IMG/VR virus record: IMGVR_UViG_2850778813_000004 | DNA length: 48,008 bases | Direction: 5' to 3' (one strand) | Source: a virus | Taxonomy: Duplodnaviria > Heunggongvirae > Uroviricota > Caudoviricetes | Shown: positions 5,977 through 26,042 of the stretch, in pieces | Position numbering within the stretch: the first letter of the stretch is position 1 | Layout: every line of letters begins with the position of its first letter | Translations under genes and position numbers: made by a program | Notes under the pieces: model-generated | Database searches by the model: none | The model's input: only the letters and a program-made list of their open reading frames with translations | Told to the model about the DNA's origin: nothing

Positions 5977-6020
5977 CCTCGCGCATACAGCCGGGCAGTG
6001 ACGTCATCGTCTGCGCGGAA

Positions 6021-7037: not shown

Positions 7038-7124
7038 CTTAATGCCTCTTATATTTATGCTGGCCGCCATGAATATGGCGGCCATTTTAACTTACTGAAA
7101 AAACAAGATGATTATTTTAAATAT

Positions 7125-7965: not shown

Positions 7966-8247
7966 TTAATCGTAGCGATTTAACACGATTTTGCGTTTGT
8001 CGTTATTACCCACAGTTACCACTTCTGTCGTAACGCCTTTTGCAGTAGAAGAAGCACGATAGTTGGTTTCAACTCGTTGTAACAACTGCCCACAACGTTG
8101 CTGAAGATGATTATTAACAACATCCATACTGCATGTAGGGGAACTAATTCTGCCATTGATGGTTAATGTTGCAGTCTCTGAAGAGAACGCGGGAGAAGCC
8201 AATCCATAGGCAAGAAAAATAATTCCTGACAGCCAATACTTATTCAT
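7966..8247 (-). CDS. yehE: YehE-like small secreted protein
   Basis: 93-aa ORF with signal peptide, positioned between yehD and mrp as in K-12. Confidence 0.7.
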   Translation of the reverse strand: MNKYWLSGIIFLAYGLASPAFSSETATLTINGRISSPTCSMDVVNNHLQQRCGQLLQRVETNYRASSTAKGVTTEVVTVGNNDKRKIVLNRYD

Positions 8248-8509
8248 TGAACGTTATCCCTGTAGTAAAGGTTATGCCTGGATAGAATGAGTGCATAACA
8301 AACTATAGCTGTACATCCACTACACAGCCACGAAGGATGATAATGAAGCATTGCCTGTACGATCAATCGACTTTGTAGAGTTTCGGACGAAGGTCCGCAG
8401 AATATTCGCAGTATTAAATAAGTGTTCATTAATGCGGCAAAAACAAATACACCGCATCAATATAACATCTCTGCGGTGTATGAAGAATAACCAGAATGGT
8501 TAATAGGCG

Positions 8510-9619
8510 TTAGACCGCGCGGAAGGAAATCTCGCCTGGAATGACTTCACCCTGCCAGTAGAGCTGAGCTGCAACGCGGTCAGCCAGCTGGCGGTAGATA
8601 GCGGTAAATTCGCTCTCCGGGCGGCTGATAACCGTTGGCGTGCCTTTATCGAGATCCTCACGTAAGGAGATGTGTAACGGCATCTGCCCCAGCAGCTGTG
8701 TATGGTATTTTTCAGCCAGTTTCTCTGCACCACCGGTACCGAAAATCGGTTCATGGTGACCACAGTTACTGCAAATATGCACACTCATGTTCTCGACAAT
8801 ACCGAGCACCGGAACCTCGACTTTCTCGAACATCACAATGCCTTTTTTCGCATCGATCAACGCGATGTCCTGCGGGGTGGTGACCACGACTGCACCAGTT
8901 ACTGGAATGTTTTGCGCCAGCGTCAATTGAATGTCACCGGTGCCTGGCGGCATATCAAGCACCAGATAGTCGAGATCCGGCCACAAGGTTTCCTGCAGCA
9001 TCTGCATTAACGCCTTGCTCGCCATCGGTCCACGCCACACCATCGCATTGTCGTCAGTGACCAGATAACCAATTGAATTGGTTGCCAGGCCATGAGACAT
9101 AATCGGTGCCATATGGGTACCGTCCGGCGAAGTTGGACGCTGATTTTCTGCGCCCAGCATGGTGGGAATTGATGGGCCGTAGATATCGGCGTCCAGAATG
9201 CCGACTTTCGCCCCTTCCGCCGCCAGTGCCAGCGCCAGGTTTACCGCCGTGGAGGATTTACCCACGCCGCCTTTACCGGAACTGACCGCAATGATGTTCT
9301 TCACGCCATTAATACCCGGCTGATTCTTCACGCGTTTTAAGGTGGCGATATTGTGCGACAGTTTCCAGTCGATAGCTTTCGCCCCGGTGATACGCAGCAG
9401 TTCGGCGCTACATTGCTCTTTTAACTCTTCAAACGCGCTATGCCAGACGAATGGCATAACCAGTTCCACATGCAACGTGTCGTCCATCCAGGCGACATGG
9501 TGCAACGCTTTCAGCGTGGTGAGGTTATGCTTCAGGGTTGGGTGCTGAAAATTGGCCAGTGTCCCGGCGACCATTGCGCGCAAGGCTTCTGGTGATTTGG
9601 CCTGGGATTGTTCGTTCAT
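8510..9619 (-). CDS. apbC: Mrp/ApbC iron-sulfur cluster carrier ATPase
   Basis: 369 aa from ATG at 9619; Walker A GKGGVGKSST, CxxC motif, MinD/ParA fold; divergent from metG as in K-12. Confidence 0.9.
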   Translation of the reverse strand: MNEQSQAKSPEALRAMVAGTLANFQHPTLKHNLTTLKALHHVAWMDDTLHVELVMPFVWHSAFEELKEQCSAELLRITGAKAIDWKLSHNIATLKRVKNQPGINGVKNIIAVSSGKGGVGKSSTAVNLALALAAEGAKVGILDADIYGPSIPTMLGAENQRPTSPDGTHMAPIMSHGLATNSIGYLVTDDNAMVWRGPMASKALMQMLQETLWPDLDYLVLDMPPGTGDIQLTLAQNIPVTGAVVVTTPQDIALIDAKKGIVMFEKVEVPVLGIVENMSVHICSNCGHHEPIFGTGGAEKLAEKYHTQLLGQMPLHISLREDLDKGTPTVISRPESEFTAIYRQLADRVAAQLYWQGEVIPGEISFRAV

Positions 9620-9750
9620 CCCGACTCCTTTTTTGTATAGATAAACCATCAGCTGATAGTTTACCTGAAGAATATAGAGAAGTACTTACTTAACATTTTC
9701 CCATTTGGTACTATCTAACCCCTTTTCACTATTAAGAAGTAATGCCTACT

Positions 9751-11784
9751 ATGACTCAAGTCGCGAAGAAAATTCTGGTGACGTGCGCACTGCCGTACGC
9801 TAACGGCTCAATCCACCTCGGCCATATGCTGGAGCACATCCAGGCTGATGTCTGGGTCCGTTACCAGCGAATGCGCGGCCACGAGGTCAACTTCATCTGC
9901 GCCGACGATGCCCACGGTACACCGATTATGCTGAAAGCTCAGCAGCTTGGTATCACCCCGGAGCAGATGATTGGCGAAATGAGTCAGGAGCATCAGACTG
10001 ATTTCGCAGGCTTTAACATCAGCTATGACAACTATCACTCGACGCACAGCGAAGAGAACCGCCAGTTGTCAGAACTTATCTACTCTCGCCTGAAAGAAAA
10101 CGGTTTTATTAAAAACCGCACCATCTCTCAGCTGTACGATCCGGAAAAAGGCATGTTCCTGCCGGACCGTTTTGTAAAAGGCACCTGCCCGAAATGTAAA
10201 TCCCCGGATCAATACGGCGATAACTGCGAAGTCTGCGGCGCGACCTACAGCCCGACTGAATTGATCGAGCCGAAATCGGTGGTTTCTGGCGCTACGCCGG
10301 TAATGCGTGATTCTGAACACTTCTTCTTTGATCTGCCCTCTTTCAGCGAAATGTTGCAGGCATGGACCCGCAGCGGTGCGTTGCAGGAGCAGGTGGCAAA
10401 TAAAATGCAGGAGTGGTTTGAATCTGGCCTGCAACAGTGGGATATCTCCCGCGACGCGCCGTACTTCGGTTTTGAAATTCCGAACGCGCCGGGTAAATAT
10501 TTCTACGTCTGGCTAGATGCACCGATTGGCTATATGGGTTCTTTCAAGAATCTGTGCGACAAGCGCGGCGACAGCGTAAGCTTCGATGAATACTGGAAGA
10601 AAGACTCCACCGCCGAGCTGTACCACTTCATCGGTAAAGATATTGTTTACTTCCACAGTCTGTTCTGGCCAGCAATGCTGGAAGGCAGCAACTTCCGCAA
10701 GCCGACCAACCTGTTTGTTCATGGCTATGTGACGGTGAACGGCGCGAAGATGTCTAAGTCTCGCGGTACCTTTATTAAAGCCAGCACCTGGCTGAATCAT
10801 TTTGACGCCGACAGCCTGCGTTACTACTACACTGCGAAACTCTCTTCGCGCATTGATGATATCGATCTCAATCTGGAAGATTTCGTTCAGCGCGTGAATG
10901 CCGATATCGTGAACAAAGTGGTTAACCTGGCCTCCCGCAACGCGGGCTTTATCAACAAGCGTTTTGACGGCGTGCTGGCAAGCGAACTGGCTGACCCGCA
11001 GTTGTACAGAACCTTCACTGATGCCGCTGAAGTGATTGGTGAAGCGTGGGAAAGCCGCGAATTTGGTAAAGCAGTGCGCGAAATCATGGCGCTGGCTGAT
11101 CTGGCTAACCGCTATGTCGATGAACAGGCTCCGTGGGTGGTAGCGAAACAGGAAGGCCGCGATGCCGACCTGCAGGCAATTTGCTCAATGGGCATAAACC
11201 TGTTCCGCGTGCTGATGACTTACCTGAAGCCGGTACTGCCGAAACTGACCGAGCGCGCAGAAGCATTCCTTAATACGGAACTGACCTGGGATGGTATCCA
11301 GCAACCGCTGCTGGGCCATAAAGTGAATCCGTTCAAGGCGCTGTATAACCGCATAGATATGAAGCAGGTTGAAGCACTGGTGGAAGCGTCTAAAGAAGAA
11401 GTGAAAGCAGCTGCCGCGCCGGTAACTGGCCCGCTGGCAGATGATCCGATTCAGGAAACCATCACCTTTGACGACTTCGCCAAAGTTGACCTGCGCGTGG
11501 CGCTGATTGAAAACGCAGAGTTTGTTGAAGGTTCTGACAAACTGCTACGCCTGACTCTGGATCTCGGCGGCGAAAAGCGTAATGTCTTCTCCGGCATTCG
11601 TTCTGCTTACCCGGATCCGCAGGCACTGATTGGTCGTCACACCATTATGGTGGCTAACCTGGCACCACGTAAAATGCGCTTCGGTATCTCCGAAGGCATG
11701 GTGATGGCTGCCGGTCCTGGCGGGAAAGATATTTTCCTGCTAAGCCCGGATGCTGGTGCTAAACCGGGTCATCAGGTGAAATAA
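9751..11784 (+). CDS. metG: Methionyl-tRNA synthetase
   Basis: 677 aa from ATG at 9751; HIGH motif ([13 protein letters not shown]), KMSKS motif, zinc knuckle CPKC...CEVC, C-terminal tRNA-binding domain. Confidence 0.95.
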
Positions 11785-11793
11785 TCCCCCTTC

Positions 11794-11823
11794 AAGGCGC
11801 TGCATCGACAGCGCCTTTTCTTT
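11794..11823 (+). terminator. Intrinsic terminator of metG
   Basis: Stem aaggcgctg (11794-11802) / cagcgcctt (11809-11817), 6-nt loop, followed by T-rich tract. Confidence 0.7.
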
Positions 11824-11924
11824 ATAAATTCCTAAAGTTGTTTTCTTACGATTTTGTCTCTCTCTAACCCGCATAAATACTGGTAGCATCTGCATTCAAC
11901 TGGATAAAATTACAGGGATGCAGA

Positions 11925-12490
11925 ATGAGACACTTTATCTATCAGGACGAAAAATCACATAAATTCTGGGCGGTTGAGCAGCAGGGAAACGAGCTGCATA
12001 TCAACTGGGGCAAAGTCGGCACTAACGGGCAAAGCCAGATAAAAAGTTTTGCGGATGCTGCGGCAGCGGCAAAAGCGGAGCTTAAGCTGATCGCAGAGAA
12101 AACGAAAAAAGGCTATGTGGAAAATGCTTCAGCAAACGTGCATATCCCCCCCATTACCAAAGCCACTCCTGAAGTTGAAACTTCCCCTGAGAGTAAAAAC
12201 CAACGCCCCTGGCTGGCTGATGATGCGGTCATTCGGCTAACTGACGATATTAATCGATTTGCTTTTCCTCATCGCTCTCGCCCCAGAGGGATCAATTATC
12301 TGCACAAAGATGGTCAAATATGGCAGCTCATCGCGAATAACACCAGGGCATATGATCCCGCCAACAATTACCGTTCTTATCCAGAAAACTGGCAGCAGGC
12401 TTTTGCTGAGTTACAAATGCGAGTTCAAGGTAATCAACAGACAGGGAGTGCACAATCTGATGCAGCATTGCTCTGGAGTTTCTGGAACTC
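11925..12490 (+). pseudogene. molR: molR-like gene, 5' fragment (WGR domain), cut by IS600-like element
   Basis: N-terminus MRHFIYQDEKSHKFWAVEQQGNELHINWGKVGTNGQ is a WGR domain as in K-12 MolR; ORF runs into the IS end at 12491. Confidence 0.7.
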
Positions 12491-12984
12491 TGAGGTGTAC
12501 TGGCAATAGCGGACACTACCATTTGTTCTTTTTTTAAGCAGCCATCTGATGATATTTTTCCCTGAAGGCTGCCGGGGAGATATTCCCCAGACGAGAGTGA
12601 CGACGCTGACGATTGTAGAAAATCTCAATGTATTCCCGTATTACTGAGATGGCTTCATCCCGGTTATTAAAACGATAGTGGCTCAGGCTCTCATTTTTCA
12701 GCGTTCCCCAGAAGCTTTCCATCGGAGCGTTGTCGTAACAGTGACCTTTACGCGACATTGATGTTTTCAGACCAGACTGCTCCTGTATGACCCGGTAATC
12801 GTATGCGCAGTACTGTGAACCTCGATCAGAGTGGTGGATTAGCCCGGCAGGTGGGCGCTGGCTCCTGAGCGCCATAAACAGGGCTTTACCTGTTAGACTG
12901 GCCCCCTGAATCTCCAGACAACCAGTATCACTTAAATAAGTGATAGTCTTAATACTAGTTTTTAGACTAGTCATTGGAGTACAG

Positions 12985-13350
12985 ATGATTGATGTCTTAG
13001 GGCCGGAGAAACGCAGACGGCGTACCACACAGGAAAAGATCGCAATTGTTCAGCAGAGCTTTGAACCGGGGATGACGGTCTCCCTCGTTGCCCGGCAACA
13101 TGGTGTAGCAGCCAGCCAGTTATTTCTCTGGCGTAAGCAATACCAGGAAGGAAGTCTTACTGCTGTGGCCGCCGGAGAACAGGTTGTTCCTGCCTCTGAA
13201 CTTGCTGCCGCCATGAAGCAGATTAAAGAACTCCAGCGCCTGCTCGGCAAGAAAACGATGGAAAATGAACTCCTCAAAGAAGCCGTTGAATATGGACGGG
13301 CAAAAAAGTGGATAGCGCACGCGCCCTTATTGCCCGGGGATGGGGAGTAA
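12985..13350 (+). CDS. insC: IS2 InsC (orfA)
   Basis: 121 aa from ATG at 12985: [26 protein letters not shown]... Confidence 0.9.
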
Positions 13351-14213
13351 GCTTAGTCAGCCGTTGTCTCCGGGTGTCGCGTGCGCAGTTGCACGTCATT
13401 CTCAGACGAACCGATGACTGGATGGATGGCCGCCGCAGTCGTCACACTGATGATACGGATGTGCTTCTCCGTATACACCATGTTATCGGAGAGCTGCCCA
13501 CGTATGGTTATCGTCGGGTATGGGCGCTGCTTCGCAGACAGGCAGAACTTGATGGTATGCCTGCGATCAATGCCAAACGTGTTTACCGGATCATGCGCCA
13601 GAATGCCCTGTTGCTTGAGCGAAAACCTGCTGTACCACCATCGAAACGGGCACATACAGGCAGAGTGGCCGTGAAAGAAAGCAATCAGCGATGGTGCTCT
13701 GACGGGTTCGAGTTCTGCTGTGATAACGGAGAGAGACTGCGTGTCACGTTCGCGCTGGACTGCTGTGATCGTGAGGCACTGCACTGGGCGGTGACTACCG
13801 GCGGCTTCAACAGTGAAACAGTACAGGACGTCATGCTGGGAGCGGTGGAACGCCGCTTCGGCAACGATCTTCCGTCGTCTCCAGTGGAGTGGCTGACGGA
13901 TAATGGTTCATGCTACCGGGCTAATGAAACACGCCAGTTCGCCCGGATGTTGGGACTTGAACCGAAGAACACGGCGGTGCGGAGTCCGGAGAGTAACGGA
14001 ATAGCAGAGAGCTTCGTGAAAACGATAAAGCGTGACTACATCAGTATCATGCCCAAACCAGACGGGTTAACGGCAGCAAAGAACCTTGCAGAGGCGTTCG
14101 AACATTATAACGAATGGCATCCGCATAGTGCGCTGGGTTATCGCTCGCCACGGGAATATCTGCGGCAGCGGGCTTGTAATGGGTTAAGTGATAACAGATG
14201 TCTGGAAATATAG
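13308..14213 (+). CDS. insD: IS2 InsD (orfB, DDE transposase)
   Basis: 301-aa ORF overlapping insC, IS3-family orfB with DDE motif region. Confidence 0.9.
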
Positions 14214-14723
14214 GGGCAAATCCACCTGTCAGCTCTTTTGTCATGCGCTCTCCCATGGCGTAGCCGACAATTTCGCACGTATAAACATCTTTGATGCCAG
14301 CGAGGTACAACCATCCCTCCTGTGTGGCAACATACGTCAGGTCCGCCACCCAGACCTGATTTGGTGCTGTAGGAGCGAACGTCTGGTTCAGCAGATTTGG
14401 CGCAACTGGCAGATTGTGGTTCGGGTTCGTAGTCGCTCTGAACTTGCGTTTCTGCTTACAGCGTAGCCTTAGCTCCTTACGAAGACGTGCCAGTCGGTCA
14501 CGACCAACGATGATGCCATTCTCTGCCAGCTCCGTCTGGAGCCGCCGGGTTCCATATGTTTCGCGAGTGCGGATATGTGCCACCTTAATCTCCAGTTTTA
14601 GCCGCTCATCACTTTGTTTTCTGTCTGAGGGTTCATGCTGTACCCAGTTGTAATAACCGCTCCTGGATACACCAAATACCTGACACATCGCTTCAATGGG
14701 AAATTGTTGTCGCCATTGTTCGA

Positions 14724-15026
14724 TTAACGCGTATTTTTCAGCGACTCCTGTGCAAAATACGCTGTTGCTTTTTTTAATATATCTCGCTCAAGGCGAGCTT
14801 CATTTAACGCCTTACGCAGTTGCAGAATTTCAGATTCCAGTTCAGCCACCGTGCGGGAACCAGGAGTACCGAGCCCTTTTCTGGCGGCGGTAACCCATTG
14901 TCCTAAAGTGCCTTCAGGAAGGGATAATCGGGAAGCGCCTTCACTGATCGAAAGTTGATTTTCAAGAACCGTTCTGACAGCTTCGGCTTTGAACTCTTTA
15001 GAGTAACGTTGGTTTTTTCTGCTCAT
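14724..15026 (-). CDS. IS600-like orfA
   Basis: 100-aa ORF MSRKNQRYSKEFKAEAVRTVLENQ...; identical to 44688-44990. Confidence 0.85.
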   Translation of the reverse strand: MSRKNQRYSKEFKAEAVRTVLENQLSISEGASRLSLPEGTLGQWVTAARKGLGTPGSRTVAELESEILQLRKALNEARLERDILKKATAYFAQESLKNTR

Positions 15027-15149
15027 TATTAGCTCCTTCTGATGCCATTCTATTTCAGGAAGGAGTGTCCGTTAAACTCAGGCTACCTCACTCTGGTGAT
15101 GCTGCCAACTTACTGATTTAGTGTATGATGGTGTTTTTGAGGTGCTCCA

Positions 15150-15425
15150 GTGGCTTCTGTTTCTATCAGCTGTCCCTCCTGTTCAGCTACTGACGGGGTG
15201 GTGCGTAACGGCAAAAGCACTGCCGGACATCAGCGCTATCTCTGCTCTCACTGCCGTAAAACATGGCAACTGCAGTTCACTTACACCGCTTCTCAACCCG
15301 GTACGCACCAGAAAATTATTGATATGGCCATGAATGGCGTTGGATGCCGGGCAACTGCACGCATTATGGGCGTTAGCCTCAACACGATTTTACGTCACTT
15401 AAAAAACTCAGGCCGCAGTCGGTAA
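15150..15425 (+). CDS. insA: IS1 InsA
   Basis: 91-aa ORF identical to the other copies. Confidence 0.9.
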
Positions 15426-15469
15426 CCTCGCGCATACAGCCGGGCAGTGACGTCATCGTCTGCGCGGAA

Positions 15470-15847
15470 ATGGACGAACAGTGGGGATACGTCGGGGCTA
15501 AATCGCGCCAGCGCTGGCTGTTTTACGCGTATGACAGGCTCCGGAAGACGGTTGTTGCGCACGTATTCGGTGAACGCACTATGGCGACGCTGGGGCGTCT
15601 TATGAGCTTGCTGTCACCCTTTGACGTGGTGATATGGATGACGGATGGCTGGCCACTGTATGAATCCCGCCTGAAGGGAAAGCTGCACGTAATCAGCAAG
15701 CGATATACGCAGCGAATTGAGCGGCATAACCTGAATCTGAGGCAGCACCTGGCACGGCTGGGACGGAAGTCGCTGTCGTTCTCAAAATCGGTGGAGCTGC
15801 ATGACAAAGTCATCGGGCATTATCTGAACATAAAACACTATCAATAA
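15470..15847 (+). CDS. insB: IS1 InsB reading frame (expressed as InsAB' by frameshifting)
   Basis: Intact 125-aa ORF at IS positions 376-753. Confidence 0.85.
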
Positions 15848-15862
15848 GTTGGAGTCATTACC

Positions 15863-16137
15863 TTGCCTCTATTGGTGCAACCACCAAAGAAGACGCTGCC
15901 AAGACACTTGAGCCGTTAAGCGCCAAATACAAAAACATCGCGGGTGTTGAAGAAAAATTAACCTATACCGATACCTACGCGCAGGAAAACGTGACTATCG
16001 ATATGGAAAAAGTGGATTTTAAAGCCCTGCAGGGTATTTCAGGAATCAACGTTTCTGCTGAAGATACCAAAAAAGGTATCACTATGGCGCAAATGGAACT
16101 GGTGATGAAAGCCGCTGGTTTTAAAGAAGTGAAATAA
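15863..16137 (+). pseudogene. yehR: yehR-like lipoprotein gene, 3' fragment (5' end removed at the IS1 junction)
   Basis: In-frame C-terminus ...KYKNIAGVEEKLTYTDTYAQENVTIDMEKVDFKALQGISGINVSAEDTKKGITMAQMELVMKAAGFKEVK, stop at 16135-16137; no start codon or promoter. Confidence 0.75.
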
Positions 16138-16143
16138 TCTGTC

Positions 16144-16168
16144 GGCGGCCATGTTTCGCATGGCCGCC
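16144..16168. terminator. Palindromic hairpin between convergent yehR' and yehS
   Basis: ggcggccatg / catggccgcc stem with 5-nt loop; weak T tracts on both sides. Confidence 0.4.
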
Positions 16169-16177
16169 ATACCCGTC

Positions 16178-16648
16178 TTAGCTTTTCTTCACATGCTGGC
16201 GCGCTGCCAGTCCACGCAGAAAATAACGTAAAAATTGATCGCCGCATTCGCGGAAGTTTTTATGATCCGGTGCACGCATCATCGCCGTAATTTCCGGCAT
16301 CGAAACGCGGAACTGCTGTTCGGTGAGGATCGCCAGAATGTCATCGGTTTTCAGCGAAAACGCGATGCGTAATTTTTTTAGCACGATGTTGTTATTAATG
16401 CGACGTTCCGGCTCCAGTGCCGGAGCAGACTCATCCTTGCCGCGTTTTTCATAAATCAGGCCATTGAGGAATGACGACAAAACAATGTCCGGACAACGCT
16501 GAAAACCCTCTTCGTCTTCTTTACGTAGCCAGACGGCGATCTGTTCCGCGGTGGCTTCGACATTACCCAGCGCCAGAATACGCACCAGGTCATTATTATT
16601 GGCTTTCAAAATGTAGCGCACGCTGCGCAGAATATCGTTACTTAGCAT
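16178..16648 (-). CDS. yehS: YehS-like protein (DUF1456)
   Basis: 156 aa from ATG at 16648 (MLSNDILRSVRYILKANNNDLVRILAL...); K-12 synteny with btsR. Confidence 0.75.
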   Translation of the reverse strand: MLSNDILRSVRYILKANNNDLVRILALGNVEATAEQIAVWLRKEDEEGFQRCPDIVLSSFLNGLIYEKRGKDESAPALEPERRINNNIVLKKLRIAFSLKTDDILAILTEQQFRVSMPEITAMMRAPDHKNFRECGDQFLRYFLRGLAARQHVKKS

Positions 16649-16694
16649 GAGGCCTTCAGGTGTTGATGAGGCAAAAAGCCATTTTAGCAGTCTT

Positions 16695-17414
16695 TTACAG
16701 GCCAATCGCCTCTTTTAAGGTTTTCAGATAACGGCGGCTGACCGGCACGGTTAAGCCATTACGCAAAATCAACTCGGCCTGGCCGTTATCTTCCAGACGA
16801 ATCTCCTGTAAATGCGCGAGGTTAACCAGATACTGACGATGGCAGCGCAGTAGTGGTGTACGACTTTCCAGGGTACGTAATGTCAATTCGGTAAAGCCCT
16901 CTTTCCCTTCGTGGCTGGTAACGTAGATACCGCTCATCCGACTGCTGACAAATGCCACATCTTTCATTTGCAGCAAATAAATCCGACTATGCCCAGTACA
17001 AGGGATAAATTTCAGCGCCTGTTGATTTTCTGGTAACAGCGAAACATCCTGCTTGCTGCGTTCCTGCCGCAAACGCGCCAGCGTTTTCTCCAGTCGCTCT
17101 TCATCAATTGGCTTCAGCAGATAATCAAAGGCGTGTTCTTCAAAGGCTTTAATGGCGTATTCGTCAAACGCGGTGAGAAAAACAATATACGGACGATGTT
17201 CCGGGTCGAGCATCCCCACCATTTCCAGACCACTGATGCGCGGCATCTGGATATCGAGAAACAGCACATCCGGGCGCAGTTTATGCACCGCGCCGATCCC
17301 TTCCACGGCGTTTGAACACTCACCAACGATTTCAATATCGCTCTGCTCCTGCAAAAATACGCGCAGGTTCTCCCGTGCTAACGGTTCATCATCGACAATT
17401 AAGACTTTAATCAT
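16695..17414 (-). CDS. btsR: LytTR-family response regulator BtsR (YehT)
   Basis: 239 aa from ATG at 17414; receiver domain ([17 protein letters not shown]...D54 region) plus C-terminal LytTR DNA-binding domain. Confidence 0.85.
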
Positions 17415-19096
17415 GCCTCGTCCCTCCATGGTAGTCGTAACGTTATTCGGGTGTAACTATCAGGCTCACAGGCGACGCTTATCCCATAGTCATCGCCAAA
17501 CCGTTCACGTAAACGCTTATCCACCAGATTCATCCCCAGCCCACTGGCATTGGTTACCGGTTGATACAAACCGGCATTGTCTTCGATCTCCAGCATCAAA
17601 TGTTGCCCCTCACGTCGGGCGCTGATTGCCACTCGCCCTGTATCCAGCAGTTGTGATGTCCCATGTTTAATGGCGTTTTCCACTATCGGTTGCAGGGTAA
17701 ACGCGGGCAATTGCTGCTGGGATAATTCTTGCGGAATAGCAATGTTGACCTGCAACCGCGACTGGAAGCGCGCCTTTTCAATTTGCAGATAAGCGTTCAC
17801 ATGTTCAATTTCGTCGGCGAGAGTAACAAACTCCGAAGGCCGCTTTAAGTTTTTGCGGAAAAAAGTGGAAAGATACTGCACCAGCTGGCTGGCCTGTTCG
17901 CTGTCGCGACGGCTCACCGCTTTAATGGTGTTAAGCGCATTAAACAAAAAATGGGGGTTCACCTGGGCGTGAAGCAGTTTGATCTCTGACTGGGTGAGCA
18001 TCGCTTTTTGCCGCTCATATTGCCCGGCGAGGATCTGCGCCGAAAGCAGTTGCGCAATCCCCTCGCCCAGCGTGCGGTTGATTGAACTGAATAAACGGTT
18101 TTTGGCTTCATACAATTTGATGGTGCCCATCACCCGCTGATTTTCACCACGCAACGGAATTACCAGCGTCGACCCCAGTTTGCATTGCGGATGCAAAGAG
18201 CAACGATAAGGTACTTCGTTGCCATCAGCGTAGACCACTTCACCGGTTTCAATCGCTTTTAAGGTGTAAGTCGAAGATATTGGTTTGCCGGGTATATGGT
18301 GGTCGTCACCAATTCCGGTAAAGGCCAGCAATTTCTCTCGATCGGTAATCGCGACTGCACCAATATCCAGCTCCTGATACAGCACCTGTGCCACTTTCAT
18401 GCTGTTCACTTCGTTAAACCCCTGGCGCAAAATGCCTTCCGTCGAGGCAGCCACTTTCAGCGCAGTGGCAGAAAAAGCCGAAGTGTATTTTTCAAACATC
18501 GCGCGTTTATCTAGCAATATACGCATAAACAGCGCCGCGCCGACGGTATTGGTGACCATCATTGGCGCAGCAATATTACTCACCAGACGCACCGCATCTT
18601 CATAAGGTCGGGCGATCGCCAGGATGATCAACATTTGCACCATTTCAGCGACGAACGTGACGGCACCGGCGGTAATGGGGTTAAAGACTTTATCAGTGCG
18701 CCCGCGACGGATCAGGATGCTGTGTACCAGGCCGCCGAGCAATCCTTCAACGATGGTCGAGATCATGCAACTTAGCGCGGTCATGCCCCCCATCGAATAT
18801 CGATGTAACCCGCCGGTCAGGCCAACCAGCCCACCGACGACCGGACCGCCGAGTAAGCCGCCCATGACCGCGCCTATCGCACGGGTATTGGCAATAGAAT
18901 CGTCAATGTGCAACCCAAACCAGGTGCCCATGATGCAGAAGATGGAAAAGACGATGTAGCAGAGAAATTTATGCGGCAGACGAACCGTGACCTGCATTAA
19001 CGGTATGAATAATGGCGTTTTACTCATTAACCATGCAATGACTAAAAAAACGCACATCTGCTGAAGCAGCAGCAACACCAGATTAAAATCGTACAT
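17411..19096 (-). CDS. btsS: Sensor histidine kinase BtsS (YehU, LytS family)
   Basis: 561 aa from ATG at 19096; N-terminal 5TM Lyt domain, GAF-like region, H-box (FLFNALNTI) and ATPase domain; 4-nt overlap with btsR. Confidence 0.85.
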
Positions 19097-19317
19097 ACCC
19101 GCAAACCACACTTCCCTTTAAAACGCGTAACATATATTGCCTGCGTTTAACTTTCTTTGAACTCTTGCAGAAAAATGAGAATTCGTGAGTACAATCACTC
19201 AAAATCGCCTGGCAAAAATAAAATCACCCTATAAATGCACAAAAAACGGGCAAAACTACCTGGTTCGCAAAACTGCGTCTAAAGTTAAACCGGGACCTCG
19301 CGAGCAAGGGTGAGACG

Positions 19318-19386
19318 ATGGCGCTTTACACAATTGGTGAAGTGGCGTTGCTTTGTGATATTAACCCTGTCACGTTACGCGCGTGA
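19318..19386 (+). pseudogene. mlrA: mlrA (yehV) N-terminal remnant; MerR-type helix-turn-helix ends at a TGA after 22 codons, at the prophage junction
   Basis: MALYTIGEVALLCDINPVTLRA then TGA (19384-19386) where I recall intact mlrA having TGG; downstream sequence no longer encodes a MerR effector domain. Placement divergent from btsS matches K-12. Confidence 0.6.
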
Positions 19387-19544
19387 CGCAACATTTTTAA
19401 AAATCGACGAAGATCGTCCAGGAGCGCCGTTTTTCAAGGGTTGGATAGATGATTCGTTTACCATGTCGACGAACTTCGACGAATTTCGCCGATAAAAAGT
19501 GTCCCATACATGCCCCATTGATGCCCCATAAACAATATCAGGAA

Positions 19545-19574
19545 TTGACACTGGTTATCCATACAGATAAAAAT
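19545..19574 (+). promoter_or_regulatory. Sigma70-type promoter (-35 TTGACA 19545-19550, 17-nt spacer, -10 TAAAAA 19568-19573)
   Basis: Perfect -35 hexamer and A/T-rich -10 immediately upstream of the LexA box; presumed native dinI-like promoter, now separated from its gene by IS1. Confidence 0.55.
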
Positions 19575-19579
19575 AACAC

Positions 19580-19595
19580 CTGTACATAACTACAG
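19580..19595 (+). promoter_or_regulatory. LexA (SOS) box CTGTacataactACAG
   Basis: Exact CTGT-N8-ACAG palindrome 12 bp upstream of the IS1 insertion point and, in the pre-insertion sequence, about 30 bp upstream of the dinI-like ATG. Confidence 0.7.
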
Positions 19596-19621
19596 TTACA
19601 GGAGGGGGTAATGACTCCAAC

Positions 19622-19999
19622 TTATTGATAGTGTTTTATGTTCAGATAATGCCCGATGACTTTGTCATGCAGCTCCACCGATTTTGAGAACGACAGCGAC
19701 TTCCGTCCCAGCCGTGCCAGGTGCTGCCTCAGATTCAGGTTATGCCGCTCAATTCGCTGCGTATATCGCTTGCTGATTACGTGCAGCTTTCCCTTCAGGC
19801 GGGATTCATACAGTGGCCAGCCATCCGTCATCCATATCACCACGTCAAAGGGTGACAGCAAGCTCATAAGACGCCCCTGCGTCGCCATAGTGCGTTCACC
19901 GAATACGTGCGCAACAACCGTCTTCCGGAGCCTGTCATACGCGTAAAACAGCCAGCGCTGGCGCGATTTAGCCCCGACGTATCCCCACTGTTCGTCCAT
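19622..19999 (-). CDS. insB: IS1 InsB reading frame
   Basis: 125-aa ORF, IS1 copy c. Confidence 0.85.
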
Positions 20000-20043
20000 T
20001 TCCGCGCAGACGATGACGTCACTGCCCGGCTGTATGCGCGAGG

Positions 20044-20319
20044 TTACCGACTGCGGCCTGAGTTTTTTAAGTGACGTAAAATCGTGTTGAGGCTAACGCC
20101 CATAATGCGTGCAGTTGCCCGGCATCCAACGCCATTCATGGCCATATCAATAATTTTCTGGTGCGTACCGGGTTGAGAAGCGGTGTAAGTGAACTGCAGT
20201 TGCCATGTTTTACGGCAGTGAGAGCAGAGATAGCGCTGATGTCCGGCAGTGCTTTTGCCGTTACGCACCACCCCGTCAGTAGCTGAACAGGAGGGACAGC
20301 TGATAGAAACAGAAGCCAC
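20044..20319 (-). CDS. insA: IS1 InsA
   Basis: 91-aa ORF, IS1 copy c. Confidence 0.9.
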
Positions 20320-20387
20320 TGGAGCACCTCAAAAACACCATCATACACTAAATCAGTAAGTTGGCAGCATCACCACAGGAGGGTGTT

Positions 20388-20636
20388 ATGCGTGTTGAGA
20401 TCTGTATCGCTAAAGAAAAAATCACTAAAATGCCAAACGGTGCTGTGGATGCGTTAAAGGAAGAATTAACCCGACGCATCAGTAAACGTTATGACGATGT
20501 AGAGGTGATCGTAAAAGCCACCAGCAACGATGGCCTTTCTGTTACGCGCACCGCCGATAAAGATTCAGCTAAAACTTTTGTTCAGGAGACTCTGAAAGAT
20601 ACCTGGAAGTCTGCTGACGAGTGGTTTTTTCACTAA
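20388..20636 (+). CDS. DinI-family SOS protein (prophage-borne)
   Basis: 82 aa from ATG at 20388 with SD aggagg inside the IS1 target duplicate; [37 protein letters not shown]... has the DinI fold signature (acidic C-terminus ...SADEWFFH). Confidence 0.8.
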
Positions 20637-20719
20637 TTAACACGTAAAATCGGTAACAGCTGGAAATCATTCAATACTCGCACTATCGAAAGTTCGCCAG
20701 CCAGCCGTGGCACGTTCTT

Positions 20720-20830
20720 GCATACGACGTGCTACGGTTTCATTCATCTCCGACCGGAAACTTCTTATACAAAGTCGATACGCCAACATCATAGATGATC
20801 ACCACCTTCTGGCGAGAAACTCCTGATGCA
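20720..20830 (-). pseudogene. C-terminal relic (36 codons) of a Gin/Pin/Hin-type DNA invertase
   Basis: Translation AQAGRQIASGVSRQKVVIIYDVGVSTLYKKFPVGDE-stop contains the conserved helix-turn-helix motif IIYDVGVSTLYKxFP of tail-fibre-switching serine invertases; upstream frame is closed by TAG at 20831-20833. Confidence 0.6.
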
Positions 20831-20952
20831 ATTTGTCGTCCGGCCTGTGCCTATTGCTCCGGCGTGAGAGTAATACAGTAAACTGTAGAAAAAGCCCATT
20901 AAACCTAATATAATAATAAGTTACAGAATTATCTTTACTGAATAATAGATAT

Positions 20953-21498
20953 ATGAATATTAGTGAACTTAAAAAGTGCATACACTATGAAGTAATAGGT
21001 TGTAAACGCCCTTTCTCCTGGCGAAAAGCAATTGTTCGCGCAATAAAACACAGAAGATCACGTTATTTATTTTGGTGGCGCATAGCAAAATATCTTTTTG
21101 ATAAAGGCGGATACCGGCGAAAGATTGCAGGAAAAATAGAACGCTTCATTCTTGATAAATACAATGTAACCGTTCCCTTAACTGTAAATATTGGTAAAGG
21201 GTTCGACATATCTTATCTCAATGGCGTTGTTATCGGTCACAAAGTTACAATAGGTGAAAATTGTTCAATTAAGCCTGGGGTAACTATTGGACTTCGCGGT
21301 GAATTTAATGATATGGATATTGTCATAGGAAATAATGTAACCATTGGCTGTAACGCCACCATCCTTGGTGGCAAAGTGCATATAGGGAATAATGTAAAAA
21401 TAGGAGCTCATGCATTGGTACTGCATGACATTCCTGATGACTCCACATTCATTACCAAATTTCACTCTGAAATTATTTATAATTCATCTCACACATAA
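20953..21498 (+). CDS. Hexapeptide-repeat (left-handed beta-helix) O-acetyltransferase, CysE/WcaB-like, on AT-rich cargo DNA
   Basis: 181-aa ORF; tandem [LIV]-G-x-x-x-x hexapeptides (VIGHKVTIGENCSIKPGVTIGLRGE...IVIGNNVTIGCNATILGGKVHIGNNVKIGAHALV) and CysE-like N-terminal helices; visibly AT-rich relative to flanking phage genes. Confidence 0.75.
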   Translation: MNISELKKCIHYEVIGCKRPFSWRKAIVRAIKHRRSRYLFWWRIAKYLFDKGGYRRKIAGKIERFILDKYNVTVPLTVNIGKGFDISYLNGVVIGHKVTIGENCSIKPGVTIGLRGEFNDMDIVIGNNVTIGCNATILGGKVHIGNNVKIGAHALVLHDIPDDSTFITKFHSEIIYNSSHT

Positions 21499-22081: not shown

Positions 22082-23447
22082 TATGCAAGCCTCACAATAT
22101 AGTTAAATGCGATGTTTTTGACGGTGTTTTCCGCGTTACCCGCAGCGTTAACGGTGATGGTGTGTCCATGTGAACCAATCGCAACGGAGTGCGTATGCGC
22201 ACCAATACCTACAGTATGTGCATGTGCGCCAGAACTTGCTGCAGTACCAGACAGCGAGTGGGTATGAGCACCTGCTGACTGTGTCTGAATACGTTGATAA
22301 TACGATCTACGGGAAGAAGTCCCCGGGCTTACTTGATACTGTGAATTCTGGACATAAGTGAACCCACCGCCATCATAAAATGCTAACGCAGAACCGCCGC
22401 CTCCTGGCCAACGAATACCATTACCATGAGTATGAACACCGGCAGACCCCGTAGAGCCACTCAGACTGTGCGTATGCGCCCCGGTGTTATTCGTGGATTT
22501 AGTGCCGTAATCAAACGACGATGTGGTTTTCGTCCCCAAATCCGTACTGGATGCGCTGGCGCTGTGGGTGTGCGATTTAATGCCGTCCTGTTCCTGAGAC
22601 AATACGGCCCGACCACTGGCAGGTTTGCCCTTAATCGTCCAGCCACGCATATCAGGGATCACGCCTGACGGATAAGCGGCTGCAAGTTTCGGGTAAGCAG
22701 ATTTGTCAAAAGTCTGCCCCTGCATCAGGGCATAACCAGACGGAACGGTATCTGATGGCCACGGGATTGGTGCGCCGACTGGGTAGCTTTCTGGTGGAAG
22801 ATTTTTCGAGGTATAAACTTCTGCCCAGCCTTCCTCAAAACCATAACCGTCTCTTGAAGAACGGTAGAACAGACCACCATTTCTGTAATGCGCCTTCATC
22901 TGCAGGGTCCGGCAACTTCCGACTCCGGTATAGAAGTTAACCAGAATATAGCTGTCGCCAGAGCGGGTGACATTGTAAGCGCCTGATTCGGCATTCCAGG
23001 GAACGGCTCCATCCGAATCCGCATAAGCCCCCGTCGAACGTCGGGCAAATGCACCAATATTTTCCGGCGTGAGGTTAATATCCGCCGAGCCATCAAACTT
23101 AACACCGTTAATTTTTGGGGCTGCCGCAAGTTTCGTCGCGGTATCGGCGTTCCCCTTCAGTGCCCCGGTGATCCCATCAGTAACAAACAACGGACCTGAA
23201 ATAGTCCCTCCAGTCGTTGGCAGCGCTCCAATATCTGATGGTGTAGGTTTCTGATGTGAGCTATACATCGTATAAACAACACCATAGGTAACGCTGGAAG
23301 GCTTACTCGCTGAATATGTTGGCGAGGTATAAACAGAAACTGACGCATTTGCAGTACAATCCCAATGGATATTTACACTCGTCGCATAATTGGGTGATGC
23401 TGCCAACTTACTGATTTAGTGTATGATGGTGTTTTTGAGGTGCTCCA

Positions 23448-23723
23448 GTGGCTTCTGTTTCTATCAGCTGTCCCTCCTGTTCAGCTACTGACGGGGTGGT
23501 GCGTAACGGCAAAAGCACTGCCGGACATCAGCGCTATCTCTGCTCTCACTGCCGTAAAACATGGCAACTGCAGTTCACTTACACCGCTTCTCAACCCGGT
23601 ACGCACCAGAAAATTATTGATATGGCCATGAATGGCGTTGGATGCCGGGCAACTGCACGCATTATGGGCGTTAGCCTCAACACGATTTTACGTCACTTAA
23701 AAAACTCAGGCCGCAGTCGGTAA
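23448..23723 (+). CDS. insA: IS1 InsA
   Basis: 91-aa ORF, IS1 copy d. Confidence 0.9.
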
Positions 23724-23767
23724 CCTCGCGCATACAGCCGGGCAGTGACGTCATCGTCTGCGCGGAA

Positions 23768-24145
23768 ATGGACGAACAGTGGGGATACGTCGGGGCTAAA
23801 TCGCGCCAGCGCTGGCTGTTTTACGCGTATGACAGGCTCCGGAAGACGGTTGTTGCGCACGTATTCGGTGAACGCACTATGGCGACGCTGGGGCGTCTTA
23901 TGAGCTTGCTGTCACCCTTTGACGTGGTGATATGGATGACGGATGGCTGGCCACTGTATGAATCCCGCCTGAAGGGAAAGCTGCACGTAATCAGCAAGCG
24001 ATATACGCAGCGAATTGAGCGGCATAACCTGAATCTGAGGCAGCACCTGGCACGGCTGGGACGGAAGTCGCTGTCGTTCTCAAAATCGGTGGAGCTGCAT
24101 GACAAAGTCATCGGGCATTATCTGAACATAAAACACTATCAATAA
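23768..24145 (+). CDS. insB: IS1 InsB reading frame
   Basis: 125-aa ORF, IS1 copy d. Confidence 0.85.
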
Positions 24146-26042
24146 GTTGGAGTCATTACCGCATAATTGCCAATCTCAACGTAAATATCATATGTATCGC
24201 CGGATGTGTTGATCCAGGCGAAATTCGTTAATCCGACGGCTGTACGCTTCCACAAAGCCCCGGTAATTCCTTTGGGGTTTCCATTGCCTGCTCGTAGAAC
24301 CAGTTCTGAAATGCCTGCCTGATGTGGGGAACCGACGTTGTAACCAGCGCCACCAATCAATGCGATGTAAACGATGGAACTCGCTTGTGGCATGGTAACC
24401 GTAGCCAGTTTGAACCACCCAGCCCCGCCAGAGAAAGACATCGTTACTGAATTTAAAGTACCAATATCTTTCGGCGTTAATGTTATATCCGCAGTCAATG
24501 CTTTTCCGTTAACTTTTCGGTTAGATGGCACCCTGCTATTCGCATTGTCATTGGCTGCTTTAACTGCTTTTGGCGTTGCGGCCAGCGATTCACTGGTGCT
24601 ATCAACAGCACTGCTAAGTTTCACAACACCTTTAGTTGTAAGGCTTGCGTCTTCCATCGCAACTGCACCGGCAATCTCTTCAGCACGATCAGCAGCAGCT
24701 TCCGCACGGGTCGCAGCGGATTCAGCAGTAGTTTTGCTCTGAGATGCTGCCGTCGCACTGCCTGCCGCCTCTGTTGCCTTCGTGGATGCCGTCGTGGCGC
24801 TGCTCTTCGCTGCTGACGCTTGTCTGGTCGCCTCATCTTTTGAAGCAGACGCCGATGATGCCGATGACGCCGCCGAACTGGCGGACGATGCGGCAGCCGT
24901 TTTTGAGGATTCTGCGCTGGTTTCCGACGCTTTCGCGTTCGTTTCGGATGTCTTCGCTGCGGAAGCAGACCTCGCTGCTGCGCTGGCCTGTTCAGTGGCT
25001 TCGCCAGCCTTCGTTGTGGCTGTTGAAGCAGACGATGCGGAGCTTTCTGCCGATTTTCCGGCGGCGGTGACACTGGCTGAGGCCTGCCCGGCACTTGTTG
25101 ACGCTGCACTGGCAGACGACGCAGCCGCTGTTTTTGAGCCTGCCGCAGCTGAGGCACTCTGTTCCGCTGCCGTTTCAGAAGACCTGGCGTTTGTCTCAGA
25201 CGTTTTTGCCGCCTTCGCAGAATTTGCTGCCGCCGTTGCCGAGGAAGCTGCGCTGCTGGCGCTCGAGGCTGCGTTCGTTTCTGATGATTTTGCCGCCTCT
25301 TTTGAAGCCGACGCATCCCGTGCTGAAGTGGCTGCTTCTGACGCTTTCGTGGTCGCGGTGGATGCAGAAGTGGCTGCTGATTGTTGTGACGCTGCCGCAT
25401 TCGTTTCTGACGTTTTCGCCGCACCGGCACTGGTAGCCGCCGCGCTTTTTGAGGACTCTGCAGCGGCAGCACTTTTTAATGCTTCAGTGGCCTTTGTTGA
25501 TGCCGTTCCTGCGCTGGAAGACGCTGACTGAGCCGACGACGCGGCCTGTCCGGCTGACGTGCTGGCGGCACGTGCTGAGGCTGCAGCATCGGTTGCATGA
25601 GTTGCCGCCTCGCTGGCTGATGCACTGGCATCGCTGGCTGATTTTTTCGCGGCTGCCGTATTCTGTGCAACCGCGGAGGCGTTACGTGACACCTCTTCCA
25701 CCATCTGCTCAAAGCGGCGCAGTGCCTCCGGTCGGACATCATCCTCCGTCATGGCACCGAGAAAATCATTCAGCGTACCTGGTCTGGAACCTTCATAGAC
25801 GGTAATGGTCCCGGCATGTGAAGGCGGAAAACCTTCAACCAGCAGGGTGACGCTGTACTGACCATGCTCAACATCCATGCTGTAACGTCCGGCTTCATCC
25901 GGATTTTCAGAGGCCACCGTGTTCACCACCACCGTGCTGCTGGTTCGTCTGGCCTTCAGCACAATGGTGCAGTTCTGTACTGGTTTTCCTGTGCCATCTT
26001 TAAGCACGCCAGAAATTTTTACTGTCATACTTTTCCACCAAT

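What the first reader, a model, noticed from the sequence alone, without database searches (positions are those of the whole stretch)
19545..20390. IS1 inserted precisely between an SOS-regulated promoter and its dinI-like gene, duplicating the ribosome-binding site
A promoter with perfect -35 TTGACA and a canonical LexA box (CTGTacataactACAG, 19580-19595) lies just left of IS1 copy c; the dinI-like gene starts just right of it at 20388. The 9-bp target duplication (acaggaggg) contains the Shine-Dalgarno sequence, so the gene keeps its translation signals but is separated from its SOS promoter by 768 bp of IS1. Expression would now depend on read-through or an IS1-derived hybrid promoter, which uncouples this DinI paralogue from DNA-damage control.
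Basis: partly seen in the sequence, partly recalled or inferred. Interest (0 to 1): 0.45.

Follow-up and report, generated by a model that had tools for sequence, protein, structure and literature searches.

The report
IS1 splits SOS promoter from dinI
A copy of the mobile element IS1 sits in the roughly 30-base leader between a DNA-damage-controlled promoter and a small prophage dinI-like gene in a Shigella boydii chromosome, and it most likely silences that gene; this is an ordinary case of the insertion-sequence-driven gene decay typical of Shigella.

Summary
An intact 768-bp IS1 (19607-20374) is flanked by a 9-bp target duplication, ACAGGAGGG, which contains the Shine-Dalgarno sequence. 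It lies between a TTGACA promoter with LexA operators and an 82-aa DinI-family gene (20388-20636).

The uninterrupted allele occurs in 1443 of 5426 complete E. coli genomes. In phage VT1-Sakai it is already annotated as "promoter + putative SOS box + dinI". The interrupted allele occurs in none of those E. coli genomes. It is 100% identical to Shigella boydii 600657 (CP049281) and is also present in CP026762.

- There is a second LexA box inside the promoter spacer.
- IS1 is oriented with IRL next to dinI.
- An IS1 hybrid promoter would start transcription downstream of the ATG, so it cannot rescue the gene.
- The orphaned SOS promoter and the left SD copy now drive a 5-codon mini-ORF and IS1-antisense RNA.

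The most likely outcome is a polar block that leaves the gene silent or weakly expressed. Read-through, if any, would keep SOS control rather than uncouple it. Expression was not tested. This is ordinary IS-mediated decay in a defective, IS-riddled prophage, and interest is low.

The parts
19318..19386 (+). 5' fragment of mlrA (yehV), 22 codons, cut by prophage integration. Its last 20 bp (19366-19385) are the VT1-Sakai-type attachment core.
   Evidence: Translation is MALYTIGEVALLCDINPVTLRA*. The 20-bp att annotated in AP000400 is identical here. btsS lies upstream.
19545..19574 (+). Sigma-70 promoter of the dinI-like gene: -35 TTGACA at 19545-19550; -10 TAAAAA at 19568-19573 (17-bp spacer) or AAAAAT at 19569-19574 (18-bp spacer).
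   Evidence: Promoter scan gives 10 of 12 matches. The same 29 bp are annotated as a promoter in VT1-Sakai and mEp460. The -35 and A-rich -10 are conserved in diverged alleles.
19551..19566 (.). Distal LexA box CTGGTTATCCATACAG, inside the -35/-10 spacer.
   Evidence: Weight-matrix rank 3 of 47,989, score 15.9, within the range of known sites (13.6-27.6). Relatives have the canonical CTGTTTATCCATACAG at the same place.
19580..19595 (.). Proximal LexA box CTGTACATAACTACAG, over the predicted transcription start.
   Evidence: Weight-matrix rank 1 of 47,989, score 18.3. Annotated as 'putative SOS box' in AP000400. Conserved 31 nt before the ATG in alleles with 61-99% protein identity; a single box overlaps the -10 in Klebsiella, Gifsy-2, SEN34 and mEp237 relatives.
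19598..19606 (+). Left copy of the 9-bp target duplication ACAGGAGGG (an orphaned Shine-Dalgarno).
   Evidence: Empty alleles carry a single copy.
19611..19628 (+). Chimeric mini-ORF ATG ACT CCA ACT TAT TGA (MTPTY*). It starts inside IS1 IRR, 5 nt after the orphaned SD.
   Evidence: Read directly from the sequence. Translation is inferred, not shown.
19607..20374 (-). IS1 copy c, 768 bp, apparently intact. insA is 20044-20319 (-). The insB frame ends at 19622. The A6C frameshift site is at about 20062-20070. The insA promoter in IRL fires leftward, away from dinI.
   Evidence: It differs by 1-2 nt from the other three copies in the window. One missense change, InsB L->Q, lies at 19878. P_IRL-like site at 20367-20340 (-).
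20361..20366 (+). Outward-facing -35-like hexamer TTGGCA in IRL, 8 bp from the IS1 tip.
   Evidence: The literature says IS1 carries an outward -35 in its inverted repeat and needs a correctly spaced flanking -10. Here the -10 window overlaps the start codon.
20375..20383 (+). Right copy of the target duplication ACAGGAGGG. This is the working SD, 4 nt before the ATG.
20388..20636 (+). dinI-like gene, 82 aa, intact. The protein is identical to that encoded at IS1-free alleles.
   Evidence: Pfam DinI E=1.1e-18. 1GHH E=1.2e-11. NCBIfam DinI equivalog score 68 against a cut-off of 111, so it is a paralogue. The exact protein is encoded at empty sites L002 and L006-L011.
20703..20749 (+). 14-bp hairpin followed by UUUCAUUCAU, a candidate terminator for the dinI-like unit.
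   Evidence: RNA fold, z = -2.5. The simple terminator scan did not call it.

Best explanation
An IS1 copy transposed by a simple event into the roughly 30-nt 5' leader of a prophage dinI-like gene. It landed between the gene's doubly LexA-operated sigma-70 promoter and its start codon. The staggered 9-bp cut happened to span the Shine-Dalgarno sequence, so one SD copy stays with the promoter and one with the gene.

Host and prophage: the host is Shigella boydii (the window is identical to strain 600657). The prophage is a VT1-Sakai-type lambdoid element integrated in mlrA/yehV. It is already defective, with another IS1 in its tail-fibre gene plus IS2 and IS66 copies.

Mechanistic consequence (inferred, not measured):
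1. After DNA damage the SOS promoter still fires. Its transcript now carries the orphan SD, a 5-codon ORF (MTPTY), and then about 750 nt of untranslated RNA antisense to insB/insA.
2. Untranslated, C-rich RNA of this kind is the classical substrate for Rho. IS1 insertions are classically polar in both orientations. The transcript also runs head-on into transcription from the insA promoter in IRL.
3. Little of it should therefore reach dinI.
4. No IS1-borne promoter can substitute. The only outward -35 (TTGGCA in IRL) would place the transcription start inside the coding sequence, past the SD and the ATG.

Net result: the dinI-like gene is intact but silent or weakly expressed, with its SOS induction largely lost. 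It is a promoter-disconnection pseudogene in the making.
For: Structure (shown):
- IS1 ends, the 9-bp duplication and the intact insA/insB are established.
- The empty allele is contiguous in 1443 of 5426 E. coli genomes.
- The occupied allele is in 0 of 5426 E. coli genomes.
- The occupied allele is present in S. boydii 600657, CP049281, at 100% over 6249 bp, and in CP026762.

The promoter belongs to dinI and is LexA-controlled:
- It is annotated as such in AP000400.
- The two boxes rank 1st and 3rd of 47,989 positions.
- Their position is conserved across diverged alleles with unrelated upstream DNA.
- Gifsy dinI homologues with the same arrangement are induced by mitomycin C and 4.6- to 23-fold by nalidixic acid.

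No rescue promoter:
- A relaxed scan finds no good plus-strand promoter in IS1. The only hit is GTAAAA-19-CATAAT, 8 of 12 matches.
- The geometry of a hybrid promoter puts the start at about 20395-20397, after the ATG at 20388.
- The literature confirms that an IS1 hybrid promoter needs a correctly spaced -10, and that IS1 insertions upstream of genes can raise, lower or leave transcription unchanged.

Polarity:
- The mini-ORF stops after 5 codons.
- C/G is 1.1-1.47 over 19640-20000 on the transcribed strand.
- A weak hairpin followed by T6 sits at about 20035-20068.
- That IS1 is polar in both orientations through Rho is established knowledge (gal::IS1 work of the 1970s), recalled from memory and not retrieved here (one search found no usable source).
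Against: - No expression data of any kind were available.
- Rho-dependent termination cannot be predicted reliably from sequence.
- No strong intrinsic terminator is predicted on the read-through strand, so some SOS-dependent read-through may persist.
- The dinI-like coding sequence has no mutation relative to IS1-free alleles. This fits a recent insertion but equally fits continued function.
- Unrecognised outward promoters inside IS1 cannot be excluded by consensus scans.
Confidence: 0.65

Rival explanations
1. Attenuated but still SOS-inducible expression. A useful fraction of transcripts from the LexA-controlled promoter reads through IS1 in the antisense direction and is translated from the right-hand SD copy. 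The gene then stays in the SOS regulon at a lower level and with a longer leader.
For: - No convincing intrinsic terminator lies on the plus strand of IS1.
- The promoter and both LexA boxes are undamaged and identical to IS1-free alleles.
- The coding sequence is unmutated.
- The allele has persisted through some strain divergence: 5 SNPs in 6249 bp between the window and CP026762.
Against: - About 750 nt of untranslated, C>G RNA follows a 5-codon ORF, which favours Rho loading.
- Transcription converges with P_IRL.
- IS1 is classically polar in both orientations (established knowledge, from memory).
- The lack of mutations has little weight, because the IS1 copies differ by only 0-2 nt, which points to recent activity.
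Confidence: 0.22
2. Constitutive, LexA-independent expression from an IS1-derived promoter. This would be either a hybrid of the IRL -35 with a flanking -10, or an unrecognised outward promoter inside IS1. It would give true uncoupling with the gene switched on.
For: - IS1 carries an outward -35 in its inverted repeats, and documented cases of gene activation exist (afaA, blaTEM, acrEF).
- TTGGCA-17-TGTTAT is present.
Against: - The -10 candidate matches 4 of 6 positions and lacks the key A at position 2.
- It overlaps the start codon, so the predicted start (about 20395-20397) lies downstream of the SD and the ATG. The mRNA could not encode the full protein.
- The next in-frame Met (codon 14) has no SD.
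- No other plus-strand promoter of at least 9 of 12 matches exists within IS1.
Confidence: 0.08
3. The LexA box or promoter serves another transcription unit, or the juxtaposition is a chance or assembly artefact.
For: The bare pattern CTGT-N8-ACAG is expected 0.71 times per window by chance.
Against: - In IS1-free alleles the box lies 31 nt before the dinI-like ATG, with nothing in between.
- The arrangement is conserved in phages whose upstream neighbour is an integrase, an att site or unrelated DNA.
- It is annotated as such in AP000400.
- Both junctions are found in two independent complete assemblies, and the right junction in a third.
Confidence: 0.02

Closest known systems
VT1-Sakai (Sp15) prophage left end: attL in yehV/mlrA, promoter, SOS box, H0001 dinI (AP000400)
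   Same: - The 600 bp from btsS through the att core, promoter and both LexA boxes to the ATG are collinear, with 5 mismatches.
- The att core is identical.
- The dinI product is 96% identical.
- The promoter and SOS box are annotated at exactly the homologous positions.
   Different: VT1-Sakai has no IS1 there. The sequences diverge immediately after the dinI stop. Sakai has H0002, whereas this window has a remnant region followed by a hexapeptide acetyltransferase.
Classical polar IS1 insertions between a promoter and its genes (e.g. gal and lac IS1 mutations), and IS-mediated pseudogenisation in Shigella
   Same: IS1 sits in a leader or early region with a 9-bp duplication. The expected result is a Rho-dependent polar block in either orientation. 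The genome is dense with IS copies: 4 IS1, IS2 and IS66 copies in 48 kb.
   Different: The target here is an SOS-regulated prophage accessory gene, and the duplication happens to copy the SD. The polarity is inferred from established knowledge (from memory), not shown for this locus.
IS1 hybrid (fusion) promoters: Prentki et al. 1986; afaA in E. coli ST131; blaTEM-6; acrEF
   Same: The same outward -35 in the IS1 inverted repeat lies next to a gene start.
   Different: Those cases have a good -10 at 16-18 bp and a start site upstream of the RBS. Here the -10 window overlaps the ATG, so the defining geometry is not met.
LexA-controlled dinI operons of Gifsy-1/2/3 prophages (dinI-antirepressor-irsA) and the Tum/DinI module of phage 186
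   Same: A prophage-borne DinI homologue sits directly behind a promoter overlapped by a LexA box, and is damage-inducible in experiments.
   Different: - Protein identity is only about 40%.
- The Gifsy genes sit in the early region and are followed by an antirepressor gene.
- Here the gene is at the att-proximal end of the late region, appears monocistronic (candidate terminator at 20703-20749), and has two boxes rather than one.

Membership tests
IS1 (IS1-family insertion sequence) | About 768 bp with imperfect terminal inverted repeats GGTGATGCTGCCAACTTACTGAT / GGTAATGACTCCAACTTATTGAT | tested here: met
   19607-20374 is 768 bp, and both ends were read directly.
IS1 (IS1-family insertion sequence) | insA, then insB' in the -1 frame, joined by an A6C slippery motif | tested here: met
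   InsA is 91 aa (Pfam Zn_ribbon_InsA and HTH_Tnp_IS1). DDE_Tnp_IS1 E=6e-73. TTAAAAAAC is at element position 305. The insB frame is open.
IS1 (IS1-family insertion sequence) | 9-bp target-site duplication, with an empty site recoverable by removing the IS and one repeat | tested here: met
   ACAGGAGGG is present twice. The empty site is present in 1443 E. coli genomes.
DinI family (Pfam PF06183) | Sequence match above the curated threshold over the whole roughly 80-aa protein | tested here: met
   67.7 bits against a cut-off of 24.2. PDB 1GHH DinI aligns over residues 1-81, E=1.2e-11.
Chromosomal DinI orthologue (NCBIfam PRK10597 equivalog) | Score at or above the equivalog cut-off of 111 bits | tested here: not met
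   68 bits. It is a prophage paralogue, not the housekeeping dinI.
DinI family (Pfam PF06183) | Binds RecA filaments and modulates RecA co-protease activity | not testable with these tools
   This is a biochemical property. It is inferred only from homology.
SOS (LexA) regulon promoter | CTGT-N8-ACAG-type palindrome overlapping the core promoter or transcription start | tested here: met
   Two boxes, in the spacer and at the predicted start, rank 1st and 3rd of 47,989 with a weight matrix built from E. coli sites recalled from memory. The matrix also picks up a plausible box in front of a molR/yehI-like gene at 11898. No molR site was used to build the matrix, so this serves as a partial positive control.
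SOS (LexA) regulon promoter | Conservation of the operator in orthologous promoters | tested here: met
   13 of 14 relatives have a box 31-37 nt before the ATG. The exception is Yersinia phage YeP3, where the gene is internal to an operon.
SOS (LexA) regulon promoter | LexA binding and damage induction shown by experiment | not testable with these tools
   Shown only for Gifsy homologues at about 40% identity. Not shown for this allele.
IS1-generated hybrid promoter | A -10 hexamer 16-18 bp from the outward -35 of the IR, with a start site upstream of the gene's RBS | tested here: not met
   The best -10 is TGTTAT (4 of 6, no A2). The predicted start at 20395-20397 is downstream of the SD (20375-20383) and the ATG (20388).

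The most novel reading that the evidence does not exclude
The orphaned, doubly LexA-operated promoter now fires into IS1 from the IRR side. After DNA damage the cell would therefore make an RNA antisense to insB/insA. The IS1 copies seen here differ by only 0-2 nt, and S. boydii presumably carries many more. This single locus could then act in trans as an SOS-inducible antisense regulator of IS1 transposase across the genome, or in cis as a damage-dependent brake on this copy. That would link DNA damage to IS1 mobility.
Probability: 0.03. Interest if true: 0.5.

Novelty: new member of a known kind. Interest (0 to 1): 0.12.

Why it matters
It matters little beyond annotation.

- **Annotation pitfall:** an intact-looking DinI-like ORF in S. 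boydii should probably be treated as promoter-disconnected, a cryptic pseudogene that ORF-based annotation cannot see.
- **Prophage dinI regulation:** the prophage dinI module has two LexA operators, not the single annotated one.
- **Strain typing:** the junction could serve as a lineage marker. It is present in S. boydii 600657 and CP026762, absent from 5426 complete E. coli genomes, and rearranged in CP026866.
- **Possible use as a test system:** if someone wanted a natural system for Rho-dependent polarity of IS1, or for SOS-driven antisense transcription into an IS, this locus offers matched empty alleles at more than 99% identity.

Tried and rejected
- **Genome-contig scan with the single protein:** it returned only 4 close loci, too few for a cross-species view. 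The phage collection was used instead.
- **Literature on IS1 polarity and Rho:** no usable open-access source was found, so that point rests on textbook knowledge recalled from memory.
- **Accession search:** it identified only CP049281 (S. boydii 600657). The species of CP026762 and CP026866 remain unnamed here.
- **Hybrid promoter:** considered and rejected on geometry.
- **Extended -10 reading (TG-n-TATGCG):** rejected. The spacer would be 20 bp, the final T is missing, and the start would lie even further inside the ORF.
- **Co-transcription of the downstream acetyltransferase (20953-21498) from the SOS promoter:** judged unlikely. A hairpin follows dinI, and the acetyltransferase has its own TAGAAA-17-TATAAT site.
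- **A Gifsy-like antirepressor gene downstream of dinI:** none is evident. There are only short, unsupported ORFs and a minus-strand capsid-gene remnant.
- **Assembly artefact:** rejected, because both junctions recur in two independent complete genomes and the right junction in a third.

Full report
**1. What is in the sequence**

The stretch 19607-20374 is a 768-bp IS1.
- Its left end reads GGTAATGACTCCAACTTATTGAT (IRR). Its right end is the reverse complement of GGTGATGCTGCCAACTTACTGAT (IRL).
- The window holds four such copies, three in the opposite orientation. They differ from one another by 0-2 nt.
- Copy c is apparently intact. InsA is 91 aa (20044-20319, minus strand). The TTAAAAAAC frameshift motif is present and the insB frame is open. 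Pfam matches Zn_ribbon_InsA, HTH_Tnp_IS1 and DDE_Tnp_IS1.
- It has one private missense change, InsB L->Q, at 19878.
- The element is flanked exactly by ACAGGAGGG at 19598-19606 and 20375-20383. Of the other copies, d also has a 9-bp duplication, while a and b have none.

To the right, four bases after the repeat, the ATG at 20388 opens an 82-codon ORF that ends at 20636.
- It is a DinI-family protein. Pfam PF06183 gives 67.7 bits against a cut-off of 24.2. It aligns end to end with the solved E. coli DinI, 1GHH, at E=1.2e-11.
- It scores below the NCBIfam equivalog cut-off for chromosomal DinI, 68 against 111 bits. It is therefore a paralogue.

To the left lies the promoter.
- TTGACA is at 19545-19550, followed by an A-rich -10: TAAAAA at 17 bp or AAAAAT at 18 bp.
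- CTGTACATAACTACAG is at 19580-19595.

**2. Is it more than chance?**

The bare pattern CTGT-N8-ACAG is expected 0.71 times in a window of this size, so on its own it proves nothing.

I built a symmetric weight matrix from 22 E. coli LexA sites. These were recalled from memory, which is a limitation. The 20-mer at 19578 is the best of 47,989 positions (18.3 bits; known sites span 13.6-27.6).

It lies in the spacer of the same promoter, 29 bp upstream of the first.

The second-ranked hit in the window lies 8 nt in front of a molR/yehI-like gene. No molR site was used to build the matrix, so this is a reasonable partial positive control.

**3. The empty site and the source organism**

Removing IS1 and one repeat copy gives a sequence that matches contiguously in 1443 of 5426 complete E. 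coli genomes.
- The best matches are 99.7% identical.
- One alignment runs 931 bp without a gap and has a single ACAGGAGGG.
- There the order is btsR-btsS, an mlrA fragment, the DinI-like gene, then phage tail genes.

No complete E. coli genome carries the occupied allele.

I looked up the exact protein in public assemblies.
- Both junctions are present in CP049281.1 and CP026762.1.
- CP026866.1 has the right junction only. Its left flank is ruvA-ruvB, which indicates an IS1-by-IS1 rearrangement.
- CP049281.1 is 100% identical to the window over 6249 bp. It is the chromosome of Shigella boydii 600657, clade 2, serotype 4 (PMC7545283).
- CP026762 differs by 5 SNPs over the same span, so the insertion predates some strain divergence.

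**4. Does the promoter belong to the gene?**

Yes.
- The window is collinear with the left end of prophage VT1-Sakai from btsS to the dinI stop. There are 5 mismatches in the 600 bp upstream and the att core is identical.
- That record annotates the homologous 29 bp as 'putative promoter of H0001 and H0002' and the homologous 20 bp as 'LexA protein, putative SOS box'.
- The gene is common at the att-proximal end of Stx and other lambdoid phages: 133 phage records.
- In relatives with 61-99% protein identity, whose upstream DNA is unrelated (an integrase gene in mEp460, other att regions elsewhere), the proximal box stays 31 nt before the ATG. The distal box is the canonical CTGTTTATCCATACAG.
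- In relatives with 35-50% identity (Klebsiella phages, mEp237, Gifsy-2, SEN34), a single strong box overlaps a TATACT -10.
- For the Gifsy homologues, LexA dependence and induction by mitomycin C or nalidixic acid (4.6- to 23-fold) are experimental facts (PMC3121763; PMC8072944).

**5. What the insertion does (inference)**

IS1 is oriented with IRR towards the promoter and IRL towards dinI. Its own promoter, at 20367-20340 on the minus strand, therefore fires away from dinI and towards the SOS promoter.

A transcript from the SOS promoter, starting at about 19580, now carries three things in order:
- the orphan SD;
- an AUG provided by IRR at 19611, with 5-nt spacing, opening the ORF MTPTY-stop;
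- about 750 nt of untranslated RNA antisense to insB and insA.

That RNA has C>G (ratio 1.1-1.47) over 19640-20000. It also has a weak hairpin followed by T6 at about 20035-20068. No strong intrinsic terminator is predicted.

It is established knowledge that IS1 is strongly polar in both orientations through Rho. I recall this from memory, and one search found no usable source. On that basis I expect most transcripts to stop before 20375.

An IS1 hybrid promoter cannot compensate.
- The literature confirms that IS1 offers an outward -35 in its IR and needs a well-spaced flanking -10. It also reports that outcomes vary: afaA up, osmB down, ugd unchanged (PMC8764528; PMC9330008).
- Here the -35 TTGGCA ends 8 bp from the IS tip, so the -10 must fall on 20383-20390.
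- The best candidate there is TGTTAT, 4 of 6 matches and lacking A2.
- The start site would then be at about 20395-20397, beyond both the SD and the ATG.
- No other plus-strand promoter with at least 9 of 12 matches exists inside IS1.

Read-through would preserve LexA control, and the hybrid promoter cannot make a translatable mRNA. The realistic alternatives are therefore 'largely silenced' or 'weakly but still SOS-inducible'. 'Uncoupled and expressed' is not among them.

**6. Context**

The prophage is already defective and the region is riddled with IS copies.
- IS1 copy d sits in the tail-fibre gene with its own duplication.
- IS1 copies a and b have no duplications.
- There are IS2 pieces and two IS66-family copies.

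Downstream of dinI there is a 14-bp hairpin followed by a U-rich tail. After that comes a low-GC hexapeptide acetyltransferase with its own promoter-like site. The dinI unit is therefore probably monocistronic, and nothing else depends on the SOS promoter.

**7. Verdict**

This is an ordinary IS1 insertion of a well-known kind: promoter-gene disconnection with expected polarity, in an organism famous for IS-driven decay. It has three small twists: the duplicated SD, a previously unannotated second LexA box, and an SOS promoter now pointing into IS1.

The functional consequence is inferred, not measured. Interest is low.

Noticed in passing
window 11898-11917 (ATG at 11925): AACTGGATAAAATTACAGGG is the second-best LexA weight-matrix hit in the window. 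It lies 8 nt upstream of a molR/yehI-like (WGR/DUF4132-type) ORF, which is itself cut at about 12490 by an IS2 copy. It is possibly a real SOS box in front of a gene that an IS has since destroyed.
   Followed up: partly
window 5646-6413 and 15095-15862: IS1 copies a and b have no target-site duplication. E. coli matches cover only about 61-63% of 1-19606. Together these suggest IS1-mediated deletions or rearrangements in the metG-yeh region.
   Followed up: partly
window 23393-24160: IS1 copy d has a clean 9-bp duplication, GCATAATTG, inside the prophage tail-fibre gene region. The prophage is therefore defective independently of the dinI insertion.
   Followed up: partly
L004 (CP026866.1) 1-2990: In this assembly the IS1 next to dinI has ruvA-ruvB on its other side instead of the SOS promoter. 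Copy c is inverted relative to the neighbouring copies, so IS1-by-IS1 recombination has evidently moved the orphaned promoter elsewhere in that strain.
   Followed up: no
window 1-~2400 and 45619-48008; 12490-14523 and 43790-44487: Two copies of an IS66-family element (530-aa transposase) sit at the two window ends. Two IS2/IS3-family segments are also present, one in the molR-like gene and one in the phage head or portal region.
   Followed up: partly
window 19878: IS1 copy c carries a private T->A change (InsB Leu->Gln). The IS1 at the same site in CP026762 and CP026866 does not have it.
   Followed up: partly
window 20953-21498: A low-GC 181-aa hexapeptide-repeat acetyltransferase (serine or sugar O-acetyltransferase-like, below all equivalog cut-offs) lies between dinI and the tail-fibre assembly gene. 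It looks like a prophage moron with its own promoter-like site at 20886-20914. VT1-Sakai lacks it at this position.
   Followed up: partly
L019 (phage BP-4795) upstream of dinI: The motif CCCCATTGATG is repeated in tandem three times upstream of the promoter in BP-4795. It occurs once, with a related CCCCATACATG, in the window at about 19503-19530. Its function is unknown; it could be an integrase arm-type or other binding site near att.
   Followed up: no
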